Shown here: positions 1-56,039 of the stretch, piece after piece
How the letters are laid out: every line of letters starts with the position of its first letter
Position numbering within the stretch: position 1 is the stretch's first letter
From: a virus
Strand: one strand, 5' to 3'
DNA: 64,000 nucleotides
Virus record (IMG/VR): IMGVR_UViG_3300042564_002302
Location: 26,416-90,415 of that record
Notes under the pieces: model-generated
Seen by the model: only the letters and a program-made list of their open reading frames with translations
Told to the model about the DNA's origin: nothing
Database searches by the model: none
Program-made: the position numbers and the translations under genes

Positions 1-840
1 AGAGGTTCAGATGGTGGCGGAGACGCAGGATTTAGAAATAGAACAGGTAGAGGTTTTAACCTAATATCTGGAGCAGAGTATGACCTAGACTCACTTTGGT
101 ACAGAGATGGTTTGTGGGGTATTCCAGGAACTGGTTCAGGTGGTGGAGGAGCAAATGTTCTTTCTCAGGGTTCACAATATCACATTAGAGATACAAACTG
201 GTCACCAAGTTTAACAGAGCCATTCTATATGTCTTACGGAAATACAGATTATCGTGGTTGGAGATCAATCAATGATTTAGTTTCCACATTAACAACAGCT
301 ACAGCTCAAAACCACACTCAGTCTGGTTGGGCAGCAGGTTCTTCAATTAACTATAACGGAGAAAACTGGTCCTGGCAGGGTGGGTCACAGAGAGTTACAG
401 CAACAGGAAACGGAAAGGTTATAGTACAGCCAAATAATCTTATGCCTTATATTCACGGTCTCTCATATGTTCCAACATGGTCGTCATTTGTTTCATACCA
501 GCCAGCTGGAGCAACTCAACTTAGATTTGGATGGGCTATCTATAACAAGAATAGACAGCTTCTTGACTATACACTAAAGAATACAGACTATAACACAGGA
601 ACATCTTCTTGGGGTACAGCATATTCTATCAATACAAGCACAAATAACTGGGATCAGGGTATATATAACGATGCTTGGCATGAAGACGCTTATTATATGG
701 CACCAATTATTTACGTTAACAACGTGATATCAGGAAGCTACGTAGCATTTGACACAAACGACTCAGCTGGATTCTTCCAGTGTGCTAGAGGCGGAAACGG
801 AGGAAGAGGTATCGTGATTGTGAGGTATGCATTAACATGA
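1..840 (+). CDS. Glycine-rich fibre/virion accessory protein, C-terminal part (5' truncated)
   Basis: Frame is open from base 1 (RGSDGGGDAG...). Contains TGSGGGG and the C-terminal GGNGGRGIVIVRY motif typical of phage glycine-rich domains. Confidence 0.65.
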   Translation, partial: RGSDGGGDAGFRNRTGRGFNLISGAEYDLDSLWYRDGLWGIPGTGSGGGGANVLSQGSQYHIRDTNWSPSLTEPFYMSYGNTDYRGWRSINDLVSTLTTATAQNHTQSGWAAGSSINYNGENWSWQGGSQRVTATGNGKVIVQPNNLMPYIHGLSYVPTWSSFVSYQPAGATQLRFGWAIYNKNRQLLDYTLKNTDYNTGTSSWGTAYSINTSTNNWDQGIYNDAWHEDAYYMAPIIYVNNVISGSYVAFDTNDSAGFFQCARGGNGGRGIVIVRYALT

Positions 841-1172
841 AATCTATAGTCACCTTAGACGAGAATAGAATTGTACTATCAGCCAAAGTTGTTGAAGACA
901 ATTATATGGTAAAATTAGATGAGTTGGACTGCTCGACAGATCCAATTTATCAGTACTCACCTCCATCACTAGGATGGTTTTGGCTAGAAGAAGCAGGAAG
1001 ACTTGTTCCTCCAATGCCAAGCACAAAAGAGGATTGGAAGTGGGAAGATAACCACTGGAGATCTAGTTTAGAATCACCAGCAGGTAATCCAGAAGTTTTG
1101 GCAGAGCAAGTTCCAACAAGTACTCCAGAATTTCCAGCAGGACCAGTAAAACCAACACCAGGAGATAATTAA
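837..1172 (+). CDS. Hypothetical protein, possible fibre assembly partner
   Basis: ATGA overlap with the upstream gene; PPMP...WKWE..W motif seen in small genes following Gly-rich fibres. Confidence 0.5.
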   Translation: MKSIVTLDENRIVLSAKVVEDNYMVKLDELDCSTDPIYQYSPPSLGWFWLEEAGRLVPPMPSTKEDWKWEDNHWRSSLESPAGNPEVLAEQVPTSTPEFPAGPVKPTPGDN

Positions 1173-1173
1173 G

Positions 1174-1599
1174 ATGGGTATAACATCATCACCACAACAG
1201 GTAACACCAGCACTCTGGTCGTATACCTACGTACAAGCGCCAGTTAATGGCAATGGCTACGACTACTTCAATGTTTCTGTTCGTAGAAAGAACTATGGAA
1301 ACGTATCAACAGCATGGGCTGTTACAGTAGATGAAGCAGCAGTACATAAGGCAGTTCTCACTGGTAATACAACAGTTTCATTCACAGGTCTAGCAGCTTC
1401 TCTTGGTGGAGTTATGGTCTGGCAGGTAGAAATCAAGGGTGGATCACTCTTCACAGTAACTTGGCCAGCAGCAGTCAAGTGGGACTCTTCTGCAAGTGCT
1501 CCGTCGCTTTCAGCAAATACAACAGTTCTAAACTTCTTTACACCAGATAACGGAACAACAATTTACGGCGGATTAGCTTTCGCAGACATAAACGCATAA
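1174..1599 (+). CDS. Virion accessory beta-sandwich protein
   Basis: LTGNTTVSF...VTWPAAVKW...FFTPDNGTTIYG motif seen in phage tail fibre-associated domains. Confidence 0.55.
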   Translation: MGITSSPQQVTPALWSYTYVQAPVNGNGYDYFNVSVRRKNYGNVSTAWAVTVDEAAVHKAVLTGNTTVSFTGLAASLGGVMVWQVEIKGGSLFTVTWPAAVKWDSSASAPSLSANTTVLNFFTPDNGTTIYGGLAFADINA

Positions 1600-1608
1600 G
1601 GAGAAAAA

Positions 1609-2043
1609 GTGTACGCAATAGTAGAAAATCAAAAGGTAGTTTCAAGTGGAACTCTAACTGAGCTATTCCCTAGCATCTCTTTCCCAGCGACTGGTCCAGA
1701 CCAGGAGTTCTGCAAAGAAAATAATCTTACAGCAGTTGAAATGACTGCTAAATATAACAAAGATACTGAAGAACTTGTTTTCCTAGATACACCTAAAGTT
1801 ACAAAGGGTGGGAAAGTCGTAGGAGTAGAAGTTAAGAAGCTTTCAGATGAAGATGCATGGACAAGAATTAAGACAAAGAGAGACCAATTGCTTACATCAA
1901 CAGACTGGACACAACTCCCAGACACACTTGATGCAGCTAAGACAAAAGCATACGCAGAATATAGAGCGGCCCTAAGAGACATCACATCAGCTAAGTCTCC
2001 AGCAGATGTAGCATGGCCCAAGGACCCAAATGAGGGAAAGTAA
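1609..2043 (+). CDS. Tail fibre assembly chaperone-like protein
   Basis: RBS AAGGAG; C-terminal KRDQLLTSTDWTQLPD...YRAALRDIT...WP motif. Confidence 0.75.
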   Translation: MYAIVENQKVVSSGTLTELFPSISFPATGPDQEFCKENNLTAVEMTAKYNKDTEELVFLDTPKVTKGGKVVGVEVKKLSDEDAWTRIKTKRDQLLTSTDWTQLPDTLDAAKTKAYAEYRAALRDITSAKSPADVAWPKDPNEGK

Positions 2044-2775
2044 GTGTTCCCTAATAACCTACTAACATTTAAGACAGACGCCCGTAGACCGTTTCCAATA
2101 TCTACTGGTCTTCAGCTTCACTATGATGCAGATGCTCCACTTACAATTGTAAAAGACTCAGTCGGAAGAGTTTCTCAATGGAAAGATCGCTCAGGATTTA
2201 ATAGACATGCTGTTCAAACAACACAAGTAAACCAGCCAATATACTCACTAAGACAAATCGGCGGAAAACCAGCAGTTGTATTTGATGGTTCAAATGACTT
2301 TATGCTTATTGGTGATGGAACAATGTCATTTCTTAATACAGCAGATATAACAATGTTCTTGGTATTTGATAGACCAGATACTCCAGTTAACAAGCCGATA
2401 TTTGGTGGAACTGGATCAATTACAAGACAAAACTTTTCAGCTGGATTTAACTCAGCTACCAACTTCGGTATAAGATTTCAAAATGATGATGCAAACGCAC
2501 TTATTCCAAATGTGGCTGCAGGAACACCAGAACTTATAACATTTACATTTGATTCTTTAACTAACGGTAAAATCGTTAGAAGAAATAAAGTTCAAGAGCT
2601 TGAATCAGCAGGTACTGGATCACTTTCTGGTATGATTGGTCAAGCGCTTGGAAGATATCTTACACAGTACGGTAATATTCAATTGGGAGAGGTTGCTATA
2701 TTCAATAGAGTACTGACCCAGGCGGAAATTGATAATGCGGAAGGCTCCCTTGCAATCAAGTGGGGCGTATCTTAA
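2044..2775 (+). CDS. LamG/concanavalin A-like domain protein
   Basis: GLQLHYDAD, VSQWKDRSG..RHAVQ, VVFDGSND, GEVAIFNRVL...KWG pattern. Confidence 0.7.
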   Translation: MFPNNLLTFKTDARRPFPISTGLQLHYDADAPLTIVKDSVGRVSQWKDRSGFNRHAVQTTQVNQPIYSLRQIGGKPAVVFDGSNDFMLIGDGTMSFLNTADITMFLVFDRPDTPVNKPIFGGTGSITRQNFSAGFNSATNFGIRFQNDDANALIPNVAAGTPELITFTFDSLTNGKIVRRNKVQELESAGTGSLSGMIGQALGRYLTQYGNIQLGEVAIFNRVLTQAEIDNAEGSLAIKWGVS

Positions 2776-2789
2776 GTTAGGAGTAGTAA

Positions 2790-3116
2790 ATGGCATATGT
2801 ACCAGCAAGATTGGTTGGCCCATATAATCTGGTAGATAGCTATCAGTCTCTTTATGCTGCAACTTCAGCAACAATTGTCAAGCAAATAGTTTTATCAAAT
2901 ATTACTGGGTCAGATACTACAGTTAGACTTCACCTAACAACTTCTACACAACAACCATCATCTTCAAACGCCCTTCTTCAGGATGTTGAAATTGAAGCTA
3001 ACTCCACAGTTATTGCTGACATGACTCAGGTTATGAACACTGGAGATAGACTTTACGGCAGAACTGCAATATCAGGCGCCGTCAACATTACTGTATCGGG
3101 CGTAGAAGATAAATGA
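2790..3116 (+). CDS. Small virion accessory protein (hypothetical)
   Basis: RBS AGGAG; beta-rich TIVKQIVLSN...GDRL...VSGVE pattern. Confidence 0.55.
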   Translation: MAYVPARLVGPYNLVDSYQSLYAATSATIVKQIVLSNITGSDTTVRLHLTTSTQQPSSSNALLQDVEIEANSTVIADMTQVMNTGDRLYGRTAISGAVNITVSGVEDK

Positions 3117-4708
3117 GTGGCGTACAGTCTATACCCCCAAGAAAAAATTTAGGTGTCTCTAGTACTTCAGAGCCACCATTAAAGCTTGCTGCCCCAGATA
3201 TATCTGGATTAACATTAGAACAAGCAAAAGTTAAAATTATTGATTCTGGATTTAGATACGACATAGATTATCTAATTGACGATACTCGTGTAGATGGAGT
3301 TATCTTAGGGCAATACCCTCCAGCAGAAACCTTGAGACGTGAAAACGGAAAAATAAAAATTCAGGTTAACTCTAGAAGTAGTTCTATAATGCCAGATTTA
3401 ATAGGTAAAACTGAAGCAGAGGCTACAGCATTGCTTCAAGAGCAACAGATATTGTTTGTTATTACAAGAATTGATACACCACAAGCAGCATATGCAAATA
3501 AAATTTTTTATCAGTCTTCACCATATGGCACTGTCTTAGCCAGAAATATAGCAGTGGTAAGCCTGTCTCTTGGAAACTATGTGGCAGCCACAATTGGTTC
3601 ACTTCCTAGCGTTTTAGGTTTAACTTATGATTTGGCCCTACAACAAATGTCTGTTGCAGGATTTTCTAATATTCAGAGGGTGCTTGATACATCTAATACA
3701 GTAGAGTATCAAACTAAGAATGGTGTTGTTAAAGAGCAGTTCCCTCCTGGAGGACAAACAACATCATTTACTCAGGTAATTCAACTTAAAACATATGCTT
3801 ACAGCGGTGTTGTAGTTCCTAATCTTTCTGGCTTAACTGTTTCAGAGGCTCAGTCACAGATATCCGCACTTGGCTTAAATTATGCAGTTGGATCATCAGT
3901 AGATACTTCAAACTCAACCCTAGGAAACAAGGTTTCTTCTCAATCTCCAGCCGCTGGTTCAACAGTGGTTTCTGGATCAACAGTTACATATAATTATTAC
4001 ACATATGTATATGTAGCACCAGTTCCACCAGTTGCAGTGTCTCCAGCACCACCTACTCCACCAGTGGCTCCAGTAGATCCACCAATTGGAGTTATTCCAG
4101 CTCCACCAGTGGCTCCAGTAGATCCACCAATAGTTCCTATTTCACCAGATGTGCCACCTGTTGGACCCATTTATGTATACCCAATTGATATTCCACCAAT
4201 TGATTTCCCTATCGGAGTTTCACCAGCCACAGGAAAGTCAGTTGGTATCAATACACTTGTAAGAACTCCAGATGGCTTAGTAGCAGCAAAAGACTTAAGA
4301 GTTGGTGATACTCTAATTTCCGCTGATATAAATACATTCCCAAGTGAAGGGTTTAATGCAACGGACCTTGCACTTGCATGGAAAGACTCTACTCCAGAAA
4401 TAAATATTGTAAATACAGTAATTGATGGAATATCGAGAAAGATGTCATCTTATGCAGTAGTCATTAATAATGATTTATTCTCAGACAGCCACTACATCCT
4501 TGCAAAAAGAAATGGAGACGCACAGTTTGTAAAGTCCCTAGATATTGAGTCTTCTGATTTAATTTATTCATATCAGGATAACGATTGGGTTGAAATTACA
4601 ACATTAGAAAAGGTTCAGGTTGACCATGAAATTATTTCTATCAACTGTGAGCCATACGATATATTCTTTACAGAGAATATGCTTACACACGATTCGCATA
4701 GTGTTTAA
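3113..4708 (+). CDS. 4x PASTA domain + proline-rich linker + C-terminal Hint (intein-like) domain protein
   Basis: Four P-[DSN]-h-x-G-x-T...Q.P repeats; Pro/Val linker at about 4015-4230; Hint blocks SVGINTLVRTPDG..DLRVGD, SDSH, ISINCE..DIFF..NMLTHD. Confidence 0.8.
   Translation: MSGVQSIPPRKNLGVSSTSEPPLKLAAPDISGLTLEQAKVKIIDSGFRYDIDYLIDDTRVDGVILGQYPPAETLRRENGKIKIQVNSRSSSIMPDLIGKTEAEATALLQEQQILFVITRIDTPQAAYANKIFYQSSPYGTVLARNIAVVSLSLGNYVAATIGSLPSVLGLTYDLALQQMSVAGFSNIQRVLDTSNTVEYQTKNGVVKEQFPPGGQTTSFTQVIQLKTYAYSGVVVPNLSGLTVSEAQSQISALGLNYAVGSSVDTSNSTLGNKVSSQSPAAGSTVVSGSTVTYNYYTYVYVAPVPPVAVSPAPPTPPVAPVDPPIGVIPAPPVAPVDPPIVPISPDVPPVGPIYVYPIDIPPIDFPIGVSPATGKSVGINTLVRTPDGLVAAKDLRVGDTLISADINTFPSEGFNATDLALAWKDSTPEINIVNTVIDGISRKMSSYAVVINNDLFSDSHYILAKRNGDAQFVKSLDIESSDLIYSYQDNDWVEITTLEKVQVDHEIISINCEPYDIFFTENMLTHDSHSV
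4056..4131 (+). repeat. 31-bp perfect direct repeat encoding PPVAPVDPPI
   Basis: ctccaccagtggctccagtagatccaccaat at 4056-4086 and 4101-4131. Confidence 0.9.
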
Positions 4709-4710
4709 CA

Positions 4711-5280
4711 ATGCCTACAACAGTTTCCCATTTAGAGACAGATGGTGTTCCAACACCGTCTTATTCTCAATACCCCTCAGAACTAGATAAATCTTGGATC
4801 CAAGTAACATTCTTTGAAGATCATCCAAAGCTTGCGGGTGTAATTTCAATATATAAAAATGATAAATATCCTACAGGAACAATTATATTCTCTAGGCACA
4901 TATTAAATGACTATCCAGATATGTATATGACATTAAATAAAGGTGGAGACACATATGCAACTACAGGGAAAAATGTTGTGCTATCAGATAGAATTTATAC
5001 AAATCCTATTTACAGAAGAAGAGGATATTGGAAATGGGCTGGAAGTATGATGAGATCAATACTCTATTCGTACAACGGCCTAGTCCTTGATGGAACAGAT
5101 GATAGGGCTTTAGCTATAGAAAAGATATATGTAAAAGCAATGAAGCTTGGGGGTCAAAAGAAATGGTTTCCAAATAATGGAAGAATGTTTAACCATAAAG
5201 GCTGGGAAAAAGAGCCACCAAGAGAACCCGCCTTTCCCTATATATGGTATAATCAAAGACTAGGAGGAAAAAATGGATAA
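4711..5280 (+). CDS. Putative GNAT-like acetyltransferase
   Basis: IYTNPIYRRRGY resembles GNAT motif A (acetyl-CoA binding); no other support. Confidence 0.4.
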   Translation: MPTTVSHLETDGVPTPSYSQYPSELDKSWIQVTFFEDHPKLAGVISIYKNDKYPTGTIIFSRHILNDYPDMYMTLNKGGDTYATTGKNVVLSDRIYTNPIYRRRGYWKWAGSMMRSILYSYNGLVLDGTDDRALAIEKIYVKAMKLGGQKKWFPNNGRMFNHKGWEKEPPREPAFPYIWYNQRLGGKNG

Positions 5281-5836
5281 AGAACACTTAGGTTCTGGAA
5301 TAGTTGTATACAGCAATGTATTTAATCAAAATGAGGATCTTATTCAAGCATTAAAATCTTCAGAAAATATAACCTGGCTTAACTCAATGGTTGGTATGGG
5401 TGGAGAAGCAAAGCTTCGTGAAACATCAAGAAAGTCAAAAAATGCAAATATAACTCAAGATGGCAGAGAGGTTTCAAATATGATTTCTCTAAGAACTAAG
5501 CTAGCTGTTGCTATGATACCAATGCTAAGAGACTACTGTGATACATTTAATGCTTCCTACTACTGGATAGAAAGCTTAGAGTTTCTTAAATATGACGAAA
5601 CAGATTTTTTCCAGGAGCATAACGACTTAGGTCAAGGGCTTACAAGAAGAATATCTTTAGTTTTTTATCCAAATGACGACTATGTTGGCGGAGAGATAGA
5701 TTTTGTTAATCACGGATTAAAGGTAAAGCCAAAAGCAAACCAGCTCATTGTTTTTCCTTCAGACTACGAATATCTACACAAGGTTCATGAGATTACAGAA
5801 GGAATTAAGTTCTCAGTAGCCTCATTCTTGAGGTAG
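5273..5836 (+). CDS. 2OG-Fe(II) oxygenase, prolyl-4-hydroxylase-like
   Basis: KY..FFQEHND (HxD), RRISLVFYPNDDYVGGE, FPS..YLHKV (distal His), GIKFS (2OG-binding Lys). Confidence 0.9.
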   Translation: MDKEHLGSGIVVYSNVFNQNEDLIQALKSSENITWLNSMVGMGGEAKLRETSRKSKNANITQDGREVSNMISLRTKLAVAMIPMLRDYCDTFNASYYWIESLEFLKYDETDFFQEHNDLGQGLTRRISLVFYPNDDYVGGEIDFVNHGLKVKPKANQLIVFPSDYEYLHKVHEITEGIKFSVASFLR

Positions 5837-5838
5837 TT

Positions 5839-6384
5839 ATGCCCAAAGCATTTGTTGAAAAAGAAGTCTTTGATAGGCAGTACTTTAATGATCTAAAGAA
5901 TCATTTTATTTCACATCCGTTTTTAAACGATGCTAGTTATGATTATTATGGCAGCAAAAGAATAGATTCTTATGAAGAGTCATACTTAAAGGATGCCCTA
6001 GAAAGACTTCATGAAAAAGCAAAGGTTCTTTTTGGCTCTAAGGCCCTAGTTCCAACATATGCAGTATTTTCTGAATATTCTGGACAGCAAGCAATGCTAG
6101 ATGAGCATTTTGATATTGGACCCTGTACCTACACAATAGATCTATGTCTTTATGAGAAAGAAACTTGGCCACTTATTATAGAAGGCGAGAGCTACTATTT
6201 TGGACCAAATGAGGCAGTTTGTTTTTATGCAAATGAGCAAAAACACTGGAAGCCAGAATTTCCAAGCCCAGATACAAACAGGGTTGGAATAGTTTTATTA
6301 CACTATGTAGAGCCAGACCACCCATGGTGTTTGCTATCAGAATCTGCTAAGCCGATTATACGAAAGAAACTTTATGCTAAATAA
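5839..6384 (+). CDS. 2OG-Fe(II) oxygenase-like protein
   Basis: EHFD..CTYTIDLCL...WP....G...HWK; paralogue of 54578-55129. Confidence 0.75.
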   Translation: MPKAFVEKEVFDRQYFNDLKNHFISHPFLNDASYDYYGSKRIDSYEESYLKDALERLHEKAKVLFGSKALVPTYAVFSEYSGQQAMLDEHFDIGPCTYTIDLCLYEKETWPLIIEGESYYFGPNEAVCFYANEQKHWKPEFPSPDTNRVGIVLLHYVEPDHPWCLLSESAKPIIRKKLYAK

Positions 6385-6961
6385 TGAGACTGATATACTA
6401 ATTAGAAGGTCTAGCAATCCTGAAATAATAAGATCAAAAGTCAATGTATCTTTATATAAAGATATAATAGAAAATGTATCATCAGATGTTGAGCACGTAT
6501 TAATATTTAATTCTGGGATAAAGGCAGACTTTGTTGAGTCTGTTAAGCCATATGACAGTAGGTTTAGCAACTTCCTTGGACTTTACTACCCAGACGTTCA
6601 CGATGCCTTCATTATAGTTAGAGACCTTGTAAAAGATATGTGTTGGAAGTTTGATATAAACTATTCAAAATCTTCATACTATATGTCTTCTGATTTTATG
6701 ACATTGGATAATGATCATTGGTATGATGGCGGCGGTCTAAGAATTCCAGCCTTTAATGGTTTAATTATAGTTGATTCCCAGCCAAACACTAAACTCTGGG
6801 TCTCAGAAACCGAGATTGATGTAAACCCAGGAGACGTCTTATTGTTTGAGGCAGGCCATAAGGTAGCTTTTGGTAATAGCAATAGTTTGGTGATATCATT
6901 TAACGTAGCACCACTTTCAATGTTAAACGGACAGTATCCAAATAAATGGATACCATTATAG
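6374..6961 (+). CDS. Divergent cupin/2OG-oxygenase-like protein
   Basis: HWYDGGG...VNPGDVLLFEAGH...ISFNV suggests a double-stranded beta-helix; the metal triad is not canonical. Confidence 0.45.
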   Translation: MLNNETDILIRRSSNPEIIRSKVNVSLYKDIIENVSSDVEHVLIFNSGIKADFVESVKPYDSRFSNFLGLYYPDVHDAFIIVRDLVKDMCWKFDINYSKSSYYMSSDFMTLDNDHWYDGGGLRIPAFNGLIIVDSQPNTKLWVSETEIDVNPGDVLLFEAGHKVAFGNSNSLVISFNVAPLSMLNGQYPNKWIPL

Positions 6962-6971
6962 GAGAAAAAGA

Positions 6972-7409
6972 ATGAACTGCATAGAAATATACAAGATTGA
7001 TCCATTAGACATAGACCCTGAGATGGATTTGTCTAGTCAAGAATTTGAAGACATTGTGTCTTCTCGCATCCAGCCAGCCATTGATGAATATGTCATCAAG
7101 CATAAGCTACCAAGAGTTGGACGAGGGTGGAAGATGGTAAACAATGAGTCTGCTACTGAGTCTGCATTAACTGTTGATGATGTAAAAGAAGAGCAGTCCG
7201 TATATACTGTTAAAGTATTTTTAAACAGCTCTTTCTCTGGCGGAGAGTTTAATTTTGTACACAGAGATGTTATTTCTCAGGTTTCTCCAGGAGACATCTT
7301 GATTTATCCGTCATCATATATAAACGCATATAAGGTTATGCCAGTAACATCTGGATCTCAAAAGTATTTGGTAAATAAGTATAGATTTCCAGGAACTGCA
7401 GAGGGTTAA
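6972..7409 (+). CDS. Degenerate 2OG-Fe(II) oxygenase-like protein
   Basis: FLNSSFSGGEFNF...PGDILIYPSSY..AYKVMPVTSG.QKY; no HxD, and Tyr at the distal His position. Confidence 0.65.
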   Translation: MNCIEIYKIDPLDIDPEMDLSSQEFEDIVSSRIQPAIDEYVIKHKLPRVGRGWKMVNNESATESALTVDDVKEEQSVYTVKVFLNSSFSGGEFNFVHRDVISQVSPGDILIYPSSYINAYKVMPVTSGSQKYLVNKYRFPGTAEG

Positions 7410-7411
7410 AA

Positions 7412-9037
7412 TTGAAGATAGTAGACCTACAGTATAATGCAAATACTTCAGCCATAACCGACGTATCACCATTTGGACACTCTGTAACACATAATGTTTC
7501 TGGCAGATATATGCCATTTAGCTCTAAGTATTTTTCGTCTACACCAAAAACTGGCATCTCCTCTTGTTACATCCCAGCAGCAAAAAATATAAAGGTAACA
7601 ACAAATAAGATTGGCTTAACCCATCAGATTGAGAATGAATTCTCAATCTCTATGATTTTTAGTCCTGTATCTTCTGGTTCATACACAATATTCTCTATGG
7701 ACGGAGACAAATGTTTATTAGAATATATTGATGGCGTTGTTAGGTTTAGCGTTGCTTATGTAGATGAAAATACACACTACGCTGTATCTTACCCACTTCC
7801 ATCCGTAGATAAGGCATACCATTTGGTTTGTTCATACAGGCGTGGATCCATAGGTATTAATTCAAATGGCCTTTTAAAGGCCACAGCGGGCCTACCAACA
7901 GACTTTAAGTTCATCTCTGATGTATCTGGTCAGACCGAAATAACATTTGGCGGAAACACGTCTGGAAACTTCTTTATTGATGATATATCCATAGATAATA
8001 AGTATCTTTCAGAAGACGAAATACTTTTGTCTTCAAATGGATATGGATCTCCACACACATTTGACCAGATTGTTTTTGGGGCAAACGCATCATATGCTAA
8101 TCCACTAGACCACAACGAAAAAGAGATTATTTTTAAATATTCATATCCTCAAGACAAAGCTTTTTCAGAAGCATATTCTATGTCTTATATGACATTAAAA
8201 AATAATATTTTATATTCAGACTCGGACGGAACTACCGTACCAGAGTTTGTCGATATTATAAATTTTCCAATTATAGACTCAACTAGCCATAATCAGATAG
8301 ACTATGATGGGTACGGAATTACTGCCTCATATAGTTTTGATGGAGATACTTATACTAGTCTAAATAATCATTCTTCTATTCCAAATTTTTCTGGAGGTCA
8401 AGTATACTTTAAGCTTGAGTTATCTCCTGATAGTAGTTCAAGAATAGACTCATTATCATTCAGAGTATTTGAATCAACCAATTTCTATACAAGAAGATCT
8501 CAGGAGCCAGTATCTTCTACTGCGACATATAGATGTGGGTATGGTACTACAAGCATTTTAAGCAACTCTTCTGGTGTAGGTGTCCTGCCATCAGATCCAC
8601 TAGTTATAGACAATCAAGACGGCGTCTCAGTTGTTGAGATGATGTTTAAGGCCACATCTTCTTCAAGATCGGTCTTGCTATCTGATGCAGTTGGGCTTTC
8701 AGCAAACGGCACACCAAATGTATTTACAAACATAGAGGAATGCTATGTCAATGGAGAGTATGTAACAGCAATGCCTACAGTTATACCAGGCGTATGGTAC
8801 CACCTTGTAGTATATCTAACTAATCCAGTAGACACGAATACCATAACAATTGGCGAGGCTAGCAAAAGCATTATATACTCAAACATAGCACTATACAAAG
8901 ATCAAACACTAGTAGAGAATAACTATTATTCTTATTTCTATAAGGATTTAATAACTGCACCATCAGACCACATTCAGCCCGACGACCTAGGCTTTAAGAC
9001 ATTCTATGTGGACAAGGTAGTGCTCTCAACATCCTGA
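7412..9037 (+). CDS. LamG-like domain virion protein
   Basis: YHLVCSY..., FFIDDISI and WYHLVV motifs in two lectin-like domains. Confidence 0.55.
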   Translation: MKIVDLQYNANTSAITDVSPFGHSVTHNVSGRYMPFSSKYFSSTPKTGISSCYIPAAKNIKVTTNKIGLTHQIENEFSISMIFSPVSSGSYTIFSMDGDKCLLEYIDGVVRFSVAYVDENTHYAVSYPLPSVDKAYHLVCSYRRGSIGINSNGLLKATAGLPTDFKFISDVSGQTEITFGGNTSGNFFIDDISIDNKYLSEDEILLSSNGYGSPHTFDQIVFGANASYANPLDHNEKEIIFKYSYPQDKAFSEAYSMSYMTLKNNILYSDSDGTTVPEFVDIINFPIIDSTSHNQIDYDGYGITASYSFDGDTYTSLNNHSSIPNFSGGQVYFKLELSPDSSSRIDSLSFRVFESTNFYTRRSQEPVSSTATYRCGYGTTSILSNSSGVGVLPSDPLVIDNQDGVSVVEMMFKATSSSRSVLLSDAVGLSANGTPNVFTNIEECYVNGEYVTAMPTVIPGVWYHLVVYLTNPVDTNTITIGEASKSIIYSNIALYKDQTLVENNYYSYFYKDLITAPSDHIQPDDLGFKTFYVDKVVLSTS

Positions 9038-9096: not shown

Positions 9097-9429
9097 ATGA
9101 ACAAAATTAAATCACAGGCAATAGAAGAAACAATCTACGGACTCTATGTTTGGCAGATGCCAGATGGTAAGTGGGTCGGAGATGATGATGGTAACTATTT
9201 AAATATACCTTCAGTTAAGAACGATAAGAAAAAGATGGCTATCTTAAAAGAGGTTGTTGGGTCTTATGGCGTAGAAGAGGGTGGACCAGTATTCCTTTCA
9301 GGAAGACGTAGAGTTACAGACGAAGAGTATGCCCATCAAAGACAAAGGCTTGAATGGGGTCTTACACCAGACCCATATGACATTGGTGAAAGTTTAGATC
9401 AAATGAAGAGGATAAAAAATGGCAACTGA
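9097..9429 (+). CDS. Hypothetical protein upstream of portal
   Basis: Clean ORF coupled to the portal gene. Confidence 0.7.
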   Translation: MNKIKSQAIEETIYGLYVWQMPDGKWVGDDDGNYLNIPSVKNDKKKMAILKEVVGSYGVEEGGPVFLSGRRRVTDEEYAHQRQRLEWGLTPDPYDIGESLDQMKRIKNGN

Positions 9430-10990
9430 GTTTGAAGATGAAAAAGACCTTATTGAAATAAGTCATTCAGGAGATCTGCCACTTAACGGACAGATGGATG
9501 AATATGGAGATCCCTTCAAGAGGGACTTTGATTCGATAAAAAAGATGAATGGTTTCAGCACTAACTTTAAAAAGAAGTTAGCCAGAACAGATCTCAATAA
9601 ATTCTTGCGTGGCAATGGTTCAGAAAGTAATGCAATCATTGAGCCATTTATGATTACTGGCTATAGCATATTAGACGTTGTGCAGCCACCTTACAATATG
9701 GATTACCTCTCAAAGATTTATGAAGTTTCTTCAGCTCACTATGGAGCGGTTAATGCAAAGGTTGCAAACATTGTTGGCTTGGGGTATGACTTTGTTGAAA
9801 GCCAGGCTACAAAAGAAAAGCTTGCAGATATAACAGATGATGTGCAGCTTGAGAGAGCACGTAGAAAGCTAGAGAGAATTAAGATTAGTCTTCATGAGTG
9901 GCTAGAGTCTACTAACGAAGAGGAAACTGTAGTAGAGACATTGTCTAGAGTCTGGAAGGACTACGAGACAACTGGAAATGGTTATATTGAAATCGGCAGA
10001 AAGAATACTGGAGAAATTGGATATATTGGACATGTGCCAGCGGCATCTATGCGTGTTCGTAGACTAAGAGACGGCTTTGTTCAAATCATTGGAAATCAGT
10101 CTGTATTCTTTAGAAACTATGGATCAGAAGATGATACTAATCCAATAACAGCAGACACTAGACCTAATGAGATTATCCACCTAAAGAACTATACACCTAC
10201 AAATGGATATTACGGTGTTCCAGATATTATTGCTTCAAAGAATGCTATGGCTGGAAACGAGTTTGCTGCAAGATTTAACCTTGACTACTTTGAGAATAAG
10301 GCTGTTCCAAGATATATTATCACAGTAAAGGGTGCCAAGCTTTCAAATGATTCAGAGAAGAAGCTGCTAGAGTTCTTCCAGACTGGACTAAAGGGTCAAA
10401 ATCATAGATCACTATATATTCCACTCCCAGCAGATAATCAGGACTCTAAGGTTGAGTTTAAGATGGATGCGGTTGAGGCTGGAGTTCAAGACTCTTCCTT
10501 TAATAACTATAGAACAGCGAATAGAGATGAGATATTAATGTCTCATCGTGTTCCAGTAAATAAGATTGGAACACCTTCTGGCGTCTCACTTGCCAATGCT
10601 CGTGATGCAGACAAGACATTTAAAGAGCAGGTATGTCGTCCAGCACAGAAGAATCTTGAAAAGAGACTTAATAAGATTATCTCTGAAAAGACAGATATGT
10701 TCCTTCTTAAGTTTAATGAGCTTACCCTTACAGATGAAGATACTCAGTCAAAGATTGATGAAAGATATCTTAGAATGAAGGTTTTAGTACCAAACGAAGT
10801 AAGATCCAGAATGGGTCTTCCAGGAATTGCTGGCGGAGACGATCCAGTAGAGCTAAAGCCACAGCAGGCAGCAGAGCAAACAGCTCAAGCAAGTGGCAAT
10901 AGAAATCGTGATCAGCAAAGACAAGGTAATCAGCCAGATGTATCTGGAGAGGGAAGAAATGCTCAAGGCGATGGAAGACAGCAAAATTAG
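9419..10990 (+). CDS. Portal protein
   Basis: DYETTGNGYIEI, EIIHLKNY..YYGVP, YFENKAVP, NEVRSRMGLP; position at the start of the head module. Confidence 0.92.
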   Translation: MATEFEDEKDLIEISHSGDLPLNGQMDEYGDPFKRDFDSIKKMNGFSTNFKKKLARTDLNKFLRGNGSESNAIIEPFMITGYSILDVVQPPYNMDYLSKIYEVSSAHYGAVNAKVANIVGLGYDFVESQATKEKLADITDDVQLERARRKLERIKISLHEWLESTNEEETVVETLSRVWKDYETTGNGYIEIGRKNTGEIGYIGHVPAASMRVRRLRDGFVQIIGNQSVFFRNYGSEDDTNPITADTRPNEIIHLKNYTPTNGYYGVPDIIASKNAMAGNEFAARFNLDYFENKAVPRYIITVKGAKLSNDSEKKLLEFFQTGLKGQNHRSLYIPLPADNQDSKVEFKMDAVEAGVQDSSFNNYRTANRDEILMSHRVPVNKIGTPSGVSLANARDADKTFKEQVCRPAQKNLEKRLNKIISEKTDMFLLKFNELTLTDEDTQSKIDERYLRMKVLVPNEVRSRMGLPGIAGGDDPVELKPQQAAEQTAQASGNRNRDQQRQGNQPDVSGEGRNAQGDGRQQN

Positions 10991-11039: not shown

Positions 11040-12590
11040 ATGGAAATATTAAAAGCCAACTGGACAACAGATGGGGATAGCATTAAAATTGCTGTTCCGT
11101 TCTCCAAAGTCGACATTGAAAAGCGTACAGTATCAGGTTTCGCTACCCTAGATAACGTAGACTCACACGGAGATGTTGTTACATCAGAGGCAAGCGTATC
11201 TGCATTTAAGAGATTCAGAGGCAACCTAAGAGAAATGCATCAGCCATTGGCTGTAGGAAAGGTTGTATCGTTTGAACCAAAGGATTACTATGATCCAGCA
11301 GATGGAAAAGTTTATAGCGGCGTATATGTCACATCATACGTTTCAAAGGGTGCACAGGATACTTGGGAAAAAGTTCTTGATGGAACACTTTCTGGATTCT
11401 CAATTGGCGGAGCAATCAAGTCAGTAGAAAACGAATTCGTCGCAGATAAAGATGCTATGGTTAGATTTATTAAAGACTATGACCTTGTAGAACTTTCACT
11501 AGTTGATAACCCAGCAAACCAACTTGCAAATATCTTTTCTATTGAAAAGGTAAATGGAGAAATGGTTATGAAGGGTATGGCAACAGAAGTCAACGCAGAA
11601 AATATTTTTTGGTGCGGAGACGATTTTGTAGCAATAACATCTTCACAAGATAACGCTAGCTGCGAGTCTTGCGGAACAGAGATGGAAAAGGTTGGATGGG
11701 TTGAAAAAGATGCAGAGGGAGACACAGTAGAAATTAGAGATGTCTCAGAAGAATATTTCTCAAAGTCTGCATTCAAATCAGGAGATTTTGTTTCATGGAA
11801 TATATCAAATGGAACAGCAAGAGGAAAAGTTTTAAAGTATAACAAATCAAATATTATAGTTGAACTATATCGTCCAAGTGGAAATGGTTGGTCTACAACA
11901 GAGAAGTCAATGTCAGTTGACATGTCTGCACTAAAAAAGATCTCACCACTTAAGGTAAACACAGAAAAGAATTCTGAGATTGACAAGGTCACAGAAGAGC
12001 GTCGTGAGTCTATTAACGGCGGCGTTTTAAATAAAGAAATAGCCAAAGAAGGAGGTACAGACGTGGAAGATACAACTAATGTTGCAGCTGAAGAAGTTGC
12101 AGTAGAAGCTACCACAGAAGTAGCCTCTGAAGCGGCAGCTGTAGAGGAAGCTGTTGTAGAAGAGGTTGCTGCAGAAACAGCTCCAGAAGGCGATGACACT
12201 GCTGTTGAAAAGGCAGCCGATATTCAGGAAGTCGCCGTCGAAGAGTTGGATTTCGCAAAGAAGCTTGATGAACTCAAGGATTTCTTTGCTGCAGGATTTG
12301 CAAAGAATGCGTCAGAAAGCGCTACTGGACTTGATTCAGTAAAGGCAGAAATCGCAGAAATCGCAAAGTCATCAGACGCTAAGTATGATGAGCTTTCAAA
12401 GAAGTATGATGAAGTTTCTGCAACACTAGCTGCACTTAAGGGTGGGCTTGATGTTACAGAGAAAAGAATTGATGCAGTTGAATCAGATACTGCTATCAAG
12501 AAGTCTGTTGATCTTGGCGGAACAACAGAAGAACCCATTAAGAAGAGTAAGTGGGGCGGCACATTCCTCGGTGTGCAAAACATTCTCTAA
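11040..12590 (+). CDS. Prohead protease fused to scaffold
   Basis: HK97-type protease motifs (VSGFAT..NVDSHGD, EMH, GFSIGG, LVELSLVDNPAN); acidic and coiled-coil C-terminus. Confidence 0.9.
   Translation: MEILKANWTTDGDSIKIAVPFSKVDIEKRTVSGFATLDNVDSHGDVVTSEASVSAFKRFRGNLREMHQPLAVGKVVSFEPKDYYDPADGKVYSGVYVTSYVSKGAQDTWEKVLDGTLSGFSIGGAIKSVENEFVADKDAMVRFIKDYDLVELSLVDNPANQLANIFSIEKVNGEMVMKGMATEVNAENIFWCGDDFVAITSSQDNASCESCGTEMEKVGWVEKDAEGDTVEIRDVSEEYFSKSAFKSGDFVSWNISNGTARGKVLKYNKSNIIVELYRPSGNGWSTTEKSMSVDMSALKKISPLKVNTEKNSEIDKVTEERRESINGGVLNKEIAKEGGTDVEDTTNVAAEEVAVEATTEVASEAAAVEEAVVEEVAAETAPEGDDTAVEKAADIQEVAVEELDFAKKLDELKDFFAAGFAKNASESATGLDSVKAEIAEIAKSSDAKYDELSKKYDEVSATLAALKGGLDVTEKRIDAVESDTAIKKSVDLGGTTEEPIKKSKWGGTFLGVQNIL
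12063..12590 (+). CDS. Putative nested in-frame scaffolding protein
   Basis: SD GGAGGT at 12051-12056, 6 nt before an in-frame GTG where the Glu/Ala-rich region starts. Confidence 0.55.
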   Translation: MEDTTNVAAEEVAVEATTEVASEAAAVEEAVVEEVAAETAPEGDDTAVEKAADIQEVAVEELDFAKKLDELKDFFAAGFAKNASESATGLDSVKAEIAEIAKSSDAKYDELSKKYDEVSATLAALKGGLDVTEKRIDAVESDTAIKKSVDLGGTTEEPIKKSKWGGTFLGVQNIL

Positions 12591-13703: not shown

Positions 13704-13741
13704 GGAGTGGGATCCCTTAAGGGGGATCCCACTTCTCTTTT
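13704..13741 (+). terminator. Intrinsic terminator after capsid gene
   Basis: GAGTGGGATCCC-ttaagg-GGGATCCCACTT followed by ctctttt. Confidence 0.85.
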
Positions 13742-55146: not shown

Positions 55147-55220
55147 GCGGCAATAGCTTAGTTGGTTAAAGCCCCGAACTCATAATTCGGTAATCGTAGG
55201 TTCAAGTCCTACTTGCCGCA
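55147..55220 (+). tRNA. tRNA with CAT anticodon (elongator Met or Ile2)
   Basis: GCGGCAA/TTGCCGC acceptor, CCGAA-CTCATAA-TTCGG, GTAGG-TTCAAGT-CCTAC; CCA not encoded. Confidence 0.92.
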
Positions 55221-55237
55221 CAAAGAAAGGAGTAACG

Positions 55238-55342: not shown

Positions 55343-55348
55343 TATAAT

Positions 55349-55423: not shown

Positions 55424-55429
55424 GTTACC

Positions 55430-55461: not shown

Positions 55462-55474
55462 ATAGAAGGAATAT

Positions 55475-55801: not shown

Positions 55802-55803
55802 AA

Positions 55804-56034: not shown

Positions 56035-56039
56035 ATAAT

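What the first reader, a model, noticed from the sequence alone, without database searches (positions are those of the whole stretch)
3113..7409. Candidate phage protein-modification system: PASTA-Pro-rich-Hint substrate followed by a GNAT-like gene and four oxygenase-like genes
Seen: a protein with 4 PASTA repeats, a ~70-aa Pro/Val/Ile linker (PPVAPVDPP repeats) and a Hint domain is followed directly by five tightly coupled genes. One of them is a canonical prolyl-4-hydroxylase-type 2OG-Fe(II) enzyme. Established: PASTA domains bind peptidoglycan/lipid II in actinobacterial PknB and PBPs; P4H-type enzymes hydroxylate Pro-rich peptides; Hint domains self-cleave. Inference: a precursor-plus-tailoring cassette in which the Pro-rich stalk is hydroxylated or acylated and the Hint domain is then released, giving a modified cell-wall-binding appendage. 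I know of no characterised phage system like this.
Basis: partly seen in the sequence, partly recalled or inferred. Interest (0 to 1): 0.8.

Follow-up and report, generated by a model that had tools for sequence, protein, structure and literature searches.

The report
Self-cleaving phage adhesin with enzyme partners
An uncultured lake phage that probably infects actinobacteria encodes, among its tail-fibre genes, a cell-wall-binding protein that ends in a self-cutting domain and is always followed by an acetyltransferase-like gene and a set of protein-hydroxylase-like genes, a conserved but untested kit that may show what such phage oxygenases are for.

Summary
ORF 3113-4708 has four PASTA repeats, a 74-residue Pro/Val/Ile stalk and a C-terminal HINT-fold domain (Ser376 nucleophile, S-x-x-H, terminal His-Asp, four-residue tail). 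Five tightly packed genes follow. One has a GNAT-like fold. One is a clear prolyl/lysyl-hydroxylase-type 2OG oxygenase. One is oxygenase-like and keeps an HxD...H motif. Two are degenerate copies that have lost the metal ligands.

The linkage is real. Over 35 dereplicated relatives, the GNAT-like gene follows the Hint gene in 31 and the degenerate oxygenase-like gene in 33. Searches started from either partner found the Hint gene wherever enough upstream DNA was held (45 of 48; 38 of 45). An intact hydroxylase is present in only 18 of 35, so hydroxylation of this stalk is optional and unproven. Collagen-like fibres nearby are rival substrates.

A lysine just before the cleavage site goes with the GNAT-like gene (72 loci have both, 5 neither, 1 mixed), but this rests on only two independent events.

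The cassette lies in a roughly 26-kb tail-fibre module in front of the portal gene. The most likely reading is a virion adhesin whose Hint domain removes itself, helped by dedicated partners.

No biochemistry exists.

The parts
3113..4708 (+). Adhesin gene (531 aa): PASTA head, Pro-rich stalk, C-terminal Hint domain and a 4-residue tail
   Evidence: ORF. Homologues with the same C-terminal domain but different heads.
3191..3994 (+). Four PASTA repeats (about aa 27-294; I read the boundaries off the sequence, and only the best stretch, 233-292, was printed)
   Evidence: Pfam PF03793, E 7.9e-32, 4 stretches. PknB PASTA structures hit at 5.7e-9.
4016..4237 (+). Low-complexity Pro/Val/Ile stalk (aa 302-375), ending in Gly-Lys375
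   Evidence: Composition and repeats. Relatives carry other low-complexity stalks in the same place.
4238..4693 (+). HINT-fold autoprocessing domain (aa 376-527): Ser376, S457-x-x-H460, E513/D516, H526-D527
   Evidence: Model. Fold matches. Profile matches that place D527 at the terminal-Asn position of inteins. Conservation.
4694..4705 (+). Four-residue tail (Ser-His-Ser-Val) after the Hint domain
   Evidence: Of 106 full-length family matches, 88 end within 8 residues of the C-terminus.
4711..5280 (+). GNAT-like fold protein (189 aa), the obligate downstream partner of the Hint gene. Its C-terminal tail is conserved and modelled with low confidence (PPRDP-x-[YF]-P-x-[IV]-W).
   Evidence: Model pLDDT 79.1. 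All leading fold rows are GNATs, but the scores are weak (Foldseek E >= 0.064; VIA Z up to 7.4; BFVD). Atlas neighbours with Acetyltransf_1 in 27-42% of members. Linkage.
5273..5836 (+). Intact prolyl/lysyl-hydroxylase-type 2OG-Fe(II) oxygenase (187 aa; His116, Asp118, His169, Lys179)
   Evidence: PF13640 at 48.7 bits. phrog_61 at 1.2e-24. Family profile against solved structures: P3H1 at 4.8e-14, P4H entries at 2.5e-13. Motif.
5839..6384 (+). Oxygenase-like protein (181 aa) with HxD...H kept. The PHROGs that match it are labelled 'ferrochelatase'.
   Evidence: phrog_2954 at 5.5e-9 and phrog_3531 at 0.0018 (phrog_3531 also matches 5273). Alignment A5. hhalign to the P4H-type family gives only 13.5% probability, but in register at HxD.
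6374..6961 (+). Degenerate double-stranded-beta-helix protein (195 aa), the second near-universal partner. The metal-binding histidines are replaced (W-Y-D-G where distant members have W-H-E/D-H).
   Evidence: A3. hhalign to the P4H-type family: probability 50%, E 1.6e-4. Atlas neighbours auto-named 2OG oxygenase. Linkage.
6972..7409 (+). Short degenerate P4H-type paralogue (145 aa) without HxD and without the distal His
   Evidence: PF13640 at 23.1 bits, below the cut-off of 27. It falls in the same iterated HMM family as 5273. Motif columns in A4.
7412..9037 (+). Concanavalin/LamG-type fibre-like protein that closes the fibre module in front of the portal (context only)
   Evidence: PF13385 at 33.5 bits. 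Portal at 9419-10990.

Best explanation
The cassette belongs to the host-recognition (tail-fibre) module of a lytic siphovirus of lake actinobacteria.

ORF 3113-4708 is a virion adhesin. It has no signal peptide, so its peptidoglycan-binding PASTA head can reach a cell wall only on the particle. The low-complexity Pro-rich stalk acts as a spacer. The conserved C-terminal Hint domain is a self-removing module: Ser376 attacks the Lys375 carbonyl (N-to-O acyl shift), and the ester is then resolved by water, by Ser528 (splicing to the four-residue tail) or by another nucleophile. In this the Hint domain plays the part that self-cleaving C-terminal chaperone domains play on other phage fibres.

The GNAT-like protein and the degenerate oxygenase-like protein (6374) are dedicated partners of that junction. 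They probably act on or around Lys375.

The intact hydroxylases (5273, probably 5839) are optional accessories. They hydroxylate proline, and perhaps other residues, in the low-complexity stalks or collagen-like fibres of the module before assembly.

Shown: domain identities, folds, conservation of catalytic residues, synteny, and position in the genome. Inferred: presence in the virion, cleavage, what the partners do, and the hydroxylase substrates.
For: Fold and residues:
- The HINT fold is confirmed.
- Ser1, block B His and block F Glu/Asp are conserved across 29 diverse members and across the 150 best representatives (H in 129, D in 127).
- The terminal residue is Asp in 76 and Asn in 64 of those 150.

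Position in the protein: 88 of 106 full-length matches end within 8 residues of the C-terminus. The heads vary (PASTA x4, x2, x1, FN3-like, Cys-rich) while the Hint domain stays 35-59% identical.

Linkage:
- o4711 is present in 31 of 35 clusters and o6374 in 33 of 35.
- Searches started from the partners: 45 of 48 and 38 of 45 loci have the Hint gene. The misses have at most 51 bp (o4711) or at most 1018 bp (o6374) of upstream DNA.
- The internal gene order is kept although the cassette sits elsewhere in the module in relatives (against 90-91).
- Locus L082 lacks exactly the o4711 + o6374 pair that its sister L078 has, and it has Asp instead of Lys at position -1.
- Lys(-1) against o4711: 72 loci have both, 5 neither, 1 has the GNAT-like gene only, 0 have Lys only.

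Context: the neighbours are tail-fibre, minor-tail, collagen-like and virion structural proteins. No promoter or terminator signal stands out inside the block. Dickeya jumbo phage AD1 gp108, annotated as a virion structural protein, is a collagen stalk plus a canonical C-terminal Hint domain, and it sits among fibre genes.

Hydroxylases: the nearest solved relatives are P3H1, P4H, LH3, EGLN1 and PKHD-type hydroxylases. The array in one relative also holds an Asp/Asn beta-hydroxylase family member (PF05118, 1.7e-12).
Against: There is no expression, proteomic or biochemical evidence. No RNA run was listed.

An intact P4H-type gene is missing in 17 of 35 lineages, including some with Pro-rich stalks. 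The hydroxylases therefore cannot be essential to the adhesin.

The GNAT assignment is weak: Foldseek E >= 0.064, VIA Z 7.4 (which the tool calls middling), and no Pfam hit for the window's copy.

The Lys(-1)/GNAT co-variation rests on two independent events on the tree, and the sign test cannot reach significance.

All relatives come from one broad group of uncultured phages. Shared descent explains part of the synteny, and the motif-based searches see only family members that keep the motif.

The penultimate His and the +1 Ser are not conserved in the distant members, so splicing cannot be the general outcome.

The usual polarity of phage fibres (conserved N-terminus on the virion) is reversed here. 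An uncleaved Hint domain used as a docking domain would explain that equally well.
Confidence: 0.45

Rival explanations
1. Hint-driven ligation. The ester made at Lys375 is not hydrolysed. It is passed to an amine (a lysine of another virion protein, or a cell-wall stem peptide), so that the head and stalk become covalently anchored by their C-terminus. The GNAT-fold protein, with its degenerate oxygenase-like partner, acts as the transferase or acceptor adaptor and uses the protein ester where ordinary GNATs use acyl-CoA.
For: The best fold match is the Tetrahymena BIL2 domain, 6y75. From recall, not from any call, that domain conjugates a ubiquitin-like domain by this chemistry.

The conserved part of the protein is C-terminal and the variable binding head is N-terminal. 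That fits anchoring through the C-terminus.

The GNAT-like gene is obligately adjacent and goes with Lys at position -1.
Against: No acceptor has been identified. The GNAT fold is weakly supported. The invariant terminal Asp/Asn points to processing at the C-terminal side as well, which ligation does not need. The co-variation rests on two events only.
Confidence: 0.15
2. The downstream genes are unrelated auxiliary or 'moron' genes in a variable spot next to a fibre gene. As proposed for cyanophage 2OG oxygenases, they would act on host metabolism (2-oxoglutarate level), on DNA repair or on host proteins, not on phage structural proteins.
For: Multi-copy 2OG oxygenase genes (pfam13640, pfam13759) are common in aquatic phages. 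They have been ascribed to 2OG/nitrogen metabolism or DNA repair, and their functions have not been investigated (passages read in PMC3037559 and PMC9602691).

The number and kind of paralogues vary from 0 to 6 among relatives.

A Tet-like dioxygenase is among the weaker structure hits (1.3e-5).
Against: Two of the partners are nearly universal and were never found apart from the Hint gene where upstream DNA was held. 40 of the 103 P4H-type ORFs lack the HxD...H triad and 24 of the 28 o6374-type representatives lack the metal-binding histidines, which does not suit a metabolic role. The genes lie inside the late structural block with no signal of their own. The closest solved relatives are protein hydroxylases, by about eight orders of magnitude in E-value.
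Confidence: 0.15
3. Nothing is cut or modified. The Hint-fold domain is a docking domain that holds the adhesin on the virion, and the small downstream proteins are fibre-assembly chaperones or minor structural proteins built on old enzyme folds.
For: Genes just downstream of fibre genes are often chaperones (general knowledge). Most o6374 members and many P4H-type members have lost their catalytic residues. The conserved C-terminal domain with a variable head suits a docking role.
Against: The Ser1, block B His and block F acidic residues, and the terminal Asp/Asn, are kept over a family of 627 representative clusters. A mere docking domain would not be expected to keep them. The window's 5273 keeps a complete iron/2OG site.
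Confidence: 0.15
4. True protein splicing. The Hint domain excises itself and joins Lys375 to the Ser-His-Ser-Val tail, so it is a C-terminally placed mini-intein.
For: Ser376, S-x-x-H, His-Asp and Ser at +1 are all present in the window's protein and in its 19 closest homologues. Asp sits at the terminal-Asn position of aligned inteins. From recall, inteins ending in Asp have been reported to splice.
Against: The +1 residue is Gly, Ala or absent in many family members, and the penultimate His is Tyr or Phe in 47 of 150. There is no conserved host protein being restored and no homing endonuclease. A four-residue 'extein' has no evident function.
Confidence: 0.1

Closest known systems
Bacterial intein-like (BIL) domains and Hog-type Hint domains (solved examples 2lwy and 6y75; hedgehog 1at0 and 6tyy)
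   Same: Same fold. An N-terminal nucleophile, block B His and block F acidic residue. The domain sits in a variable, non-housekeeping protein, as the review passages read in PMC7765530 describe for BIL domains. The expected chemistry is an N-to-O/S acyl shift followed by cleavage.
   Different: Ser in place of Cys at position 1. The terminal residue is His-Asp in the window, and Asp or Asn across the family. The domain lies at the extreme C-terminus with a tail of about 4 residues. It is found in phages: only 2 hits, both on ~10-kb contigs assigned to metagenome-assembled genomes (MAGs), in one genome each of 185,579 species. Pfam Hint models match only below their thresholds. Fixed GNAT-like and oxygenase-like neighbours are not described for BIL domains in what I read.
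Dickeya phage vB_DsoM_AD1 gp108 and its homologues in Erwinia and Yersinia jumbo phages (annotated 'virion structural protein'; phrog_38766)
   Same: A fibre-like protein with a repetitive stalk (there a true collagen repeat, PF01391 at 1.1e-13) and a C-terminal Hint domain followed by a short tail, encoded among tail and collagen-like fibre genes.
   Different: The catalytic set there is canonical (Cys1, T-x-x-H, His-Asn, Thr at +1). Identity to the window's domain is only 22.6-26.3%. There is no GNAT-like or oxygenase-like neighbour. I read no paper on whether it is processed.
C-terminal intramolecular chaperone domains of phage tail fibres and spikes (Peptidase_S74)
   Same: A self-cleaving C-terminal module on a phage fibre. 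One relative (L073) has such a collagen + S74 fibre directly after its oxygenase array. This is the functional analogy used in the best explanation.
   Different: The fold and the chemistry are unrelated. That S74 domains cleave at a conserved Ser after trimerisation is recalled, not tested here.
Viral and bacterial collagen-type prolyl/lysyl hydroxylases (solved entries 5c5t, 3itq/5hv0, 6ax6, 8k0e)
   Same: The 5273 family profile matches them at 4.8e-14 to 1.3e-9, and 6ax6 at 0.0069. A virus-encoded hydroxylase next to Pro-rich or collagen-like viral proteins has precedent: from recall, the chlorovirus P4H acts on Pro-rich repeats and the mimivirus lysyl hydroxylase on viral collagen.
   Different: Here the genes lie in a bacteriophage fibre module, in arrays of up to 6 paralogues, many of them catalytically degenerate. 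No substrate is known.
Multi-copy 2OG-Fe(II) oxygenase genes of cyanophages
   Same: The same Pfam families (pfam13640; pfam13759-like neighbours in the Atlas), many divergent paralogues per genome, and even the 'ferrochelatase domain' label for one subgroup (table seen in PMC3037559; PHROG labels).
   Different: In cyanophages they are treated as metabolic or repair genes of unknown function. Here they are tied to one structural gene, which offers a candidate substrate.

Membership tests
HINT superfamily (Hedgehog/intein fold) | Horseshoe-like HINT fold | tested here: met
   AlphaFold model with pLDDT 86.6. 47 Foldseek matches at E <= 0.001, and all printed rows are BIL, intein or hedgehog domains.
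HINT superfamily (Hedgehog/intein fold) | N-terminal nucleophile (Cys or Ser) at position 1 and block B (T/S)-x-x-H | tested here: met
   Ser376 and S457-x-x-H460. His is invariant in 29 of 29 and present in 129 of 150 representatives.
HINT superfamily (Hedgehog/intein fold) | Autoprocessing activity | not testable with these tools
   This needs expression and mass spectrometry.
Inteins (protein-splicing elements) | Terminal His-Asn followed by a Cys/Ser/Thr at +1, and insertion in a conserved host protein that splicing restores | tested here: not met
   The terminal pair is His-Asp. Ser at +1 is present here but is not conserved. Only 4 residues follow the domain, and the N-terminal partner varies.
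BIL domains (A or B type) | A Hint domain in a variable region of a non-conserved protein. A type has a conserved His-Asn; B type lacks the intein C-terminal motif (definitions from passages of PMC7765530). | tested here: inconclusive
   The variable partner is met. The C-terminal motif is neither the A-type His-Asn nor absent: it is an invariant Asp in the close set and Asp or Asn across the family. The best profile hit is the BIL structure 2lwy at 1e-5. I made no comparison with curated BIL type profiles.
PASTA domain | Match to PF03793 above the gathering score | tested here: met
   109.5 bits against a cut-off of 23.2, 4 stretches.
GNAT acyltransferases (ORF 4711-5280) | GNAT fold with the beta4-alpha3 pyrophosphate-binding loop (Q/R-x-x-G-x-G/A) | tested here: inconclusive
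   The leading rows of three structure searches are GNATs, but the scores are weak: Foldseek E >= 0.064, VIA Z 7.4 with none at 8 or above, BFVD E >= 0.016. Pfam matches 2 of 25 members at 0.014. R102-x-x-G105 is conserved, but the final G/A is not. That motif is recalled, not taken from a call.
2OG-Fe(II) oxygenase, prolyl-4-hydroxylase type (ORF 5273-5836) | PF13640 above its cut-off, plus the HxD...H iron triad and a basic 2OG-binding residue | tested here: met
   48.7 bits against 27. H116, D118, H169 and K179 are in the motif columns.
2OG-Fe(II) oxygenase (ORF 5839-6384) | Family match plus the iron triad | tested here: inconclusive
   No Pfam hit. phrog_2954 and phrog_3531 bridge it to 5273. 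HxD and a distal His are present in 6 of 9 representatives, the window's included. hhalign probability is 13.5%.
2OG-Fe(II) oxygenase (ORFs 6374-6961 and 6972-7409) | Iron-binding triad | tested here: not met
   ORF 6374: W-Y-D-G where 4 of 28 representatives have W-H-E/D-H. ORF 6972: no HxD, and Tyr at the distal His column. The fold-family relation itself is likely (hhalign 50%; same iterated HMM family).

The most novel reading that the evidence does not exclude
The Hint domain, the GNAT-fold protein and the catalytically dead oxygenase-like protein together form a phage-encoded protein-ligation or gated-maturation machine. The Hint domain activates the Lys375 carboxyl as an ester. The GNAT-fold partner then uses that protein ester instead of acyl-CoA, or acylates Lys375 to gate the reaction. 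The result is a hydroxylated stalk with its cell-wall-binding head, fixed covalently to the virion or to the host wall. If so, this would also give the first concrete substrate for the unexplained 2OG oxygenase arrays of aquatic phages.
Probability: 0.15. Interest if true: 0.85.

Novelty: new variant of a known kind. Interest (0 to 1): 0.62.

Why it matters
Aquatic phages carry many 2OG-Fe(II) oxygenase paralogues. By the passages I read (PMC9602691, PMC3037559), their functions have not been investigated, and they are usually put down to host metabolism or DNA repair. Here the same kinds of genes lie inside a structural operon, next to a protein with an obvious candidate substrate (a low-complexity Pro-rich stalk) and near collagen-like fibres. 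That makes the question testable with a few recombinant proteins.

The C-terminal Hint family is large: 627 representative clusters. It is almost confined to phage contigs and is not captured by Pfam or PHROGs. Its fixed GNAT-like and pseudo-oxygenase partners suggest a way of maturing fibres that has not been described. Self-cleaving or self-ligating modules of this kind are also useful protein-engineering parts.

PASTA heads on a phage protein also point to peptidoglycan or lipid II as an adsorption target for phages of the abundant, hard-to-culture lake actinobacteria.

Tried and rejected
- DNA similarity to cultured phages: blastn of 3113-9037 found nothing.
- Close relatives by single-protein search in viral contigs: only one near-identical contig.
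- Profile searches of solved structures for the 4711 family (best RibT, E 0.64), the 6374 family (vicilins, about 0.5-1) and the 5839 family (nothing credible) gave no assignment.
- hhalign of the 6374 family against the 5839 family: probability 0.7%.
- The AD1 neighbour gp107 against the 4711 and 6374 families: no relation.
- Collagen scan. The simple G-x-y scan also picks up Gly-Ala-Phe repeats and opposite-strand artefacts, so I did not use the raw '56 of 80 loci' figure. With a proline filter the figure is 17 of 35 clusters.
- Hydroxylase against substrate. I looked for a correlation between the presence of an intact hydroxylase and either Pro-rich stalks or collagen-like ORFs. Neither is strict, so I rejected 'the hydroxylase is required for the stalk'.
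- Prophage or cellular origin: one genome each of 185,579 species gave 2 hits, both on ~10-kb contigs assigned to metagenome-assembled genomes (MAGs). One of them carries the whole cassette.
- Expression: no RNA holder was listed.
- Literature. Searches for BIL + phage + PASTA, P4H + bacteriophage + collagen-like + tail fiber, Hint domain + tail fiber + autoproteolytic + phage, BUBL/BIL and vB_DsoM_AD1 + mass spectrometry turned up no paper on such a cassette or on C-terminal Hint domains of phage fibres. That is an absence in these five searches of open-access text only. Supplements were closed and may hold virion proteomics of the jumbo phages.
- Papers. I read passages of PMC6802176, PMC3556154, PMC7765530, PMC3037559 and PMC9602691. 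For PMC10202952 I saw only the search listing and the start of the abstract.

Full report
WHERE THE WINDOW COMES FROM. The window is bases 26416-90415 of a 90.4-kb linear virus record estimated 73% complete. G+C is 36-43%, and all the long ORFs lie on one strand. The portal protein (9419-10990) is up to 61% identical to the portals of Streptomyces phages of the family Stanwilliamsviridae. A WhiB-family gene lies at window 58377-58550 (PF02467, 45.3 bits, above the cut-off). An earlier follow-up on the same record also read it as a lake phage of actinobacteria.

THE OBSERVATION. ORF 3113-4708 (531 aa) matches PASTA at E 7.9e-32 in four stretches. Residues 302-375 form a 74-residue stalk with 27 Pro, 13 Val and 9 Ile and two copies of PPVAPVDPP, and the Ser376 codon starts at nt 4238.

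Pfam does not call the C-terminal 156 residues; scanned alone they reach only 15.6 bits for PT-HINT against a cut-off of 27.7. An AlphaFold model built on 20 homologues has pLDDT 86.6. It gives 47 Foldseek matches at E <= 0.001. The best are the Tetrahymena BIL2 domain (6y75, 1.8e-6) and the Clostridium thermocellum BIL domain (2lwy, TM 0.65/0.77, rmsd 2.6), followed by inteins and hedgehog autoprocessing domains. A Hint-only profile of 29 sequences hits 2lwy at 1e-5 and two inteins at about 0.003. Those alignments put His526-Asp527-Ser528 on the inteins' penultimate His, terminal Asn and +1 residue.

The six genes are packed with gaps of -11 to +10 nt. So is everything from 837 to 9037, and there are no more promoter-like or terminator-like sites in that block than in shuffled sequence; the one convincing terminator follows the capsid gene at 13704-13735.

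THE FIVE DOWNSTREAM GENES.
- 5273-5836 is a clear 2OG-Fe(II) oxygenase (PF13640, 48.7 bits; phrog_61, 1.2e-24) with His116, Asp118, His169 and Lys179 in the motif columns. A profile of its family hits prolyl 3-hydroxylase 1 (4.8e-14), three prolyl 4-hydroxylase entries (2.5e-13), a further P4H (1.3e-9), lysyl hydroxylase LH3, EGLN1 and PKHD-type hydroxylases. A Tet-like dioxygenase comes only at 1.3e-5. The family is thus nearest to protein hydroxylases.
- 6972-7409 belongs to the same iterated HMM family but scores below the Pfam cut-off (23.1 against 27) and lacks both HxD and the distal His.
- 5839-6384 has no Pfam hit. Two PHROGs labelled 'ferrochelatase' link it to 5273. It keeps HxD and a later His. 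hhalign to the P4H-type family gives only 13.5% probability, though in register.
- 6374-6961 aligns to the P4H-type family at 50% probability (E 1.6e-4, 100 columns in register). Its Atlas neighbours are viral clusters auto-named 2OG oxygenase. Only 4 of 28 representatives keep a W-H-(E/D)-H...H pattern; the window's copy reads W-Y-D-G.
- 4711-5280 has no family hit. Its model (pLDDT 79.1) finds almost only GNAT acetyltransferases at the top of three structure searches, always weakly: Foldseek E >= 0.064; VIA Z up to 7.4, with 123 chains at Z >= 5 and none at 8 or above; BFVD E >= 0.016. The Atlas lists viral clusters with Acetyltransf_1 in 27-42% of members.

So 'GNAT-like' holds at fold level only. 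'Four oxygenases' is really one sure enzyme, one probable enzyme and two degenerate copies.

LINKAGE ACROSS GENOMES. A word-indexed protein search found 35 proteins at E <= 0.001. I aligned 19 of them (P0002, P0004-P0021) with the window's domain and fetched 13 in full. The fetched sequences show the same C-terminal domain behind different heads: four, two or one PASTA, Cys-rich modules, or FN3-like repeats.

A pattern scan of viral contigs found 227 stretches that encode a relative, and the best 80 were fetched. By iterated HMMs, the 4711 family is in 73 of the 80 loci, the 6374 family in 72, the P4H type in 53 (103 ORFs) and the 5839 type in 30.

Many loci are near-copies. At 90% identity of the Hint domain they fall into 35 clusters:

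| Gene family | Clusters with it (of 35) |
|---|---|
| 4711 type (GNAT-like) | 31 |
| 6374 type | 33 |
| intact P4H type | 18 |
| degenerate P4H type | 10 |
| 5839 type | 16 |

Searches started from the partners agree. With a 4711-family alignment (15 of the 25 sequences, because the full set had no stretch conserved enough), 45 of 48 loci have the Hint domain directly upstream, and the other three have at most 51 bp upstream. With a 6374-family alignment (16 of 28 sequences), 38 of 45 loci have both the Hint and the 4711 genes, and the other seven have at most 1018 bp upstream. These scans see only members that keep one short motif.

The cassette also moves as a unit. In relatives such as L009 it lies between a minor-tail gene and a fibre, a collagen-like fibre and a 1168-aa virion protein. 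In this contig the homologous collagen-like fibre and the 1163-aa protein lie about 10-18 kb upstream of the cassette.

In one genome each of 185,579 species, only two ~10-kb contigs assigned to metagenome-assembled genomes (MAGs) matched. One of them carries Hint, 4711-type, 6374-type and 5839-type genes in that order.

THE HINT FAMILY. A profile search of 1.84 billion representatives gave 627 clusters at E <= 0.001, 185 at 1e-10 and 71 at 1e-30. Of the 150 best, 106 hold a full-length domain. 88 of these end within 8 residues of the protein's C-terminus, 11 within 9-20, and 7 further away.

| Position | Counts over the 150 best |
|---|---|
| block B His | H in 129 |
| block F acidic residues | E in 126, D in 127 |
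| terminal residue | Asp 76, Asn 64 |
| penultimate residue | His 93, Tyr 26, Phe 21 |
| position 1, where aligned | Ser 64, Cys 1 |

The machinery for the N-terminal acyl shift is therefore conserved throughout. The C-terminal residue is always one that can cyclise, but the +1 nucleophile is not conserved. N-terminal cleavage is the reaction most safely inferred; splicing to the four-residue tail is possible for the window's protein only.

The stalk before the domain is low-complexity in 74 of the full-length matches that have at least 30 residues before the domain. Among the fetched loci it ranges from poly-Pro through PGFN, NPY, FFPP and TPFGF to Gly-Ala-Phe and His/Tyr/Gly/Phe repeats.

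A CLUE TO THE GNAT-LIKE PARTNER. The residue before Ser1 is Lys in most members. In the 78 loci with at least 700 bp downstream:

| Lys at -1 | 4711-type gene | Loci |
|---|---|---|
| yes | yes | 72 |
| no | no | 5 |
| no (Lys at -2; L080) | yes | 1 |
| yes | no | 0 |

Locus L082 is the cleanest case. Its sister L078 reads Hint, 4711-type, 6374-type, then 237-aa, 677-aa and 1248-aa genes. L082 reads Hint, then 237-aa, 676-aa and 1237-aa genes, and it has Asp in place of Lys. On a tree of the Hint domain, with the junction residues left out, this amounts to only two independent events, and the sign test cannot be significant. It is a lead, not a result. It fits a partner that acts on Lys375 or on the bond it makes.

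SETTING AND SUBSTRATES. Between the ribonucleotide reductase gene and the portal, this contig holds about 26 kb of fibre-like genes: an LtfC-like protein, 497-aa and 1102-aa fibre proteins, a 186-aa collagen-like fibre, a phrog_5838 virion protein, two more fibre-like proteins, LamG proteins and the cassette. In the Streptomyces relatives the same interval holds an endolysin and one large gene.

The adhesin has no evident signal peptide or membrane segment (my reading of the sequence). Riding on the particle is then the simplest way for a PASTA head to meet peptidoglycan; this is inference.

Candidate hydroxylase substrates are the stalk itself and the collagen-like fibres. Pro-containing collagen-like ORFs are present elsewhere in 17 of the 35 cluster representatives, and in L073 one lies directly after an array that also holds an Asp/Asn beta-hydroxylase family member. 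Neither candidate tracks the presence of the hydroxylases strictly.

PRECEDENT. A tblastn of cultured phages found only 8 records (Erwinia, Dickeya and Yersinia jumbo phages) that match residues 372-528 at 22.6-26.3% identity. Dickeya phage AD1 gp108, annotated as a virion structural protein, has a true collagen repeat and a canonical C-terminal Hint domain (Cys, T-x-x-H, His-Asn, Thr, then ten residues). It lies among collagen-like fibre genes and has no GNAT-like or oxygenase-like neighbour. C-terminal Hint domains on phage fibres are therefore wider than this family. In five literature searches I found no study of them.

VERDICT. The sequence features are real, and the gene linkage is strong for a three-gene core: adhesin with Hint domain, GNAT-like protein, degenerate oxygenase-like protein. 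The active hydroxylases are a frequent but optional addition.

My best reading (0.45) is a virion adhesin with a self-removing Hint module, dedicated junction partners and accessory stalk or fibre hydroxylases. The rivals are Hint-driven ligation, unrelated auxiliary genes, non-catalytic docking and chaperones, and true splicing.

The parts are known kinds in a new, conserved combination, and nothing has been tested at the bench. Interest is 0.62: a specialist would be moderately surprised, and the locus makes the old question of what phage 2OG oxygenases do directly testable.

Noticed in passing
window 13704-13735: A strong intrinsic-terminator-like hairpin (14-bp stem, 8 G-C pairs) directly after the major capsid gene. 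It is the only convincing one in the first 13.8 kb.
   Followed up: no
window 55147-57658: Five tRNA genes (Met-cat, Arg-tct, Asn-gtt, Gly-tcc, Asp-gtc). The last three are almost contiguous.
   Followed up: no
window 58377-58550 (G000:C1:84792-84965): A WhiB-family gene (PF02467, 45.3 bits), a marker used for actinobacterial phages.
   Followed up: partly
L137:7412-7972 (G000:C1:16411-16971, upstream of the window): A 186-aa collagen-like tail-fibre protein whose Gly-Pro-X triplets have Pro only in the X position. It is followed by a 1163-aa phrog_5838 virion protein.
   Followed up: partly
L073:17460-18611: A fibre with a collagen repeat and a Peptidase_S74 self-cleaving chaperone domain, directly after an array of about ten small genes. 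Those genes include an Asp/Asn beta-hydroxylase family member (L073:11406-12014).
   Followed up: partly
L079 and L080 (about 10.5-18 kb): Six intact P4H-type paralogues in a row after Hint proteins whose stalk is a Phe-Phe-Pro-Pro repeat.
   Followed up: no
L072:9350-10477: A Hint protein whose stalk is a long Gly/Tyr/His/Phe repeat without proline. The locus has no 4711-type gene and no P4H-type gene.
   Followed up: partly
L044:2340-3164: A 5839-type protein fused to a C-terminal Cys-rich, zinc-ribbon-like extension.
   Followed up: no
L133 and L134: Two ~10-kb contigs binned into a Saccharimonadales MAG and a Gammaproteobacteria MAG (metagenome-assembled genomes) carry this phage-type Hint gene, and L133 carries the whole cassette. 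They are probably phage contigs that were mis-binned.
   Followed up: partly
window 11040-12590: A 516-aa protein after the portal with a long Ala/Glu/Val-rich acidic C-terminal half. It sits where the Streptomyces relatives have the capsid maturation protease.
   Followed up: no
window 1-840 and L137:14767-18256: Two paralogous fibre-like proteins of about 520 aa (phrog_863-like). The second ends in a Gly-rich motif at the start of the window.
   Followed up: no
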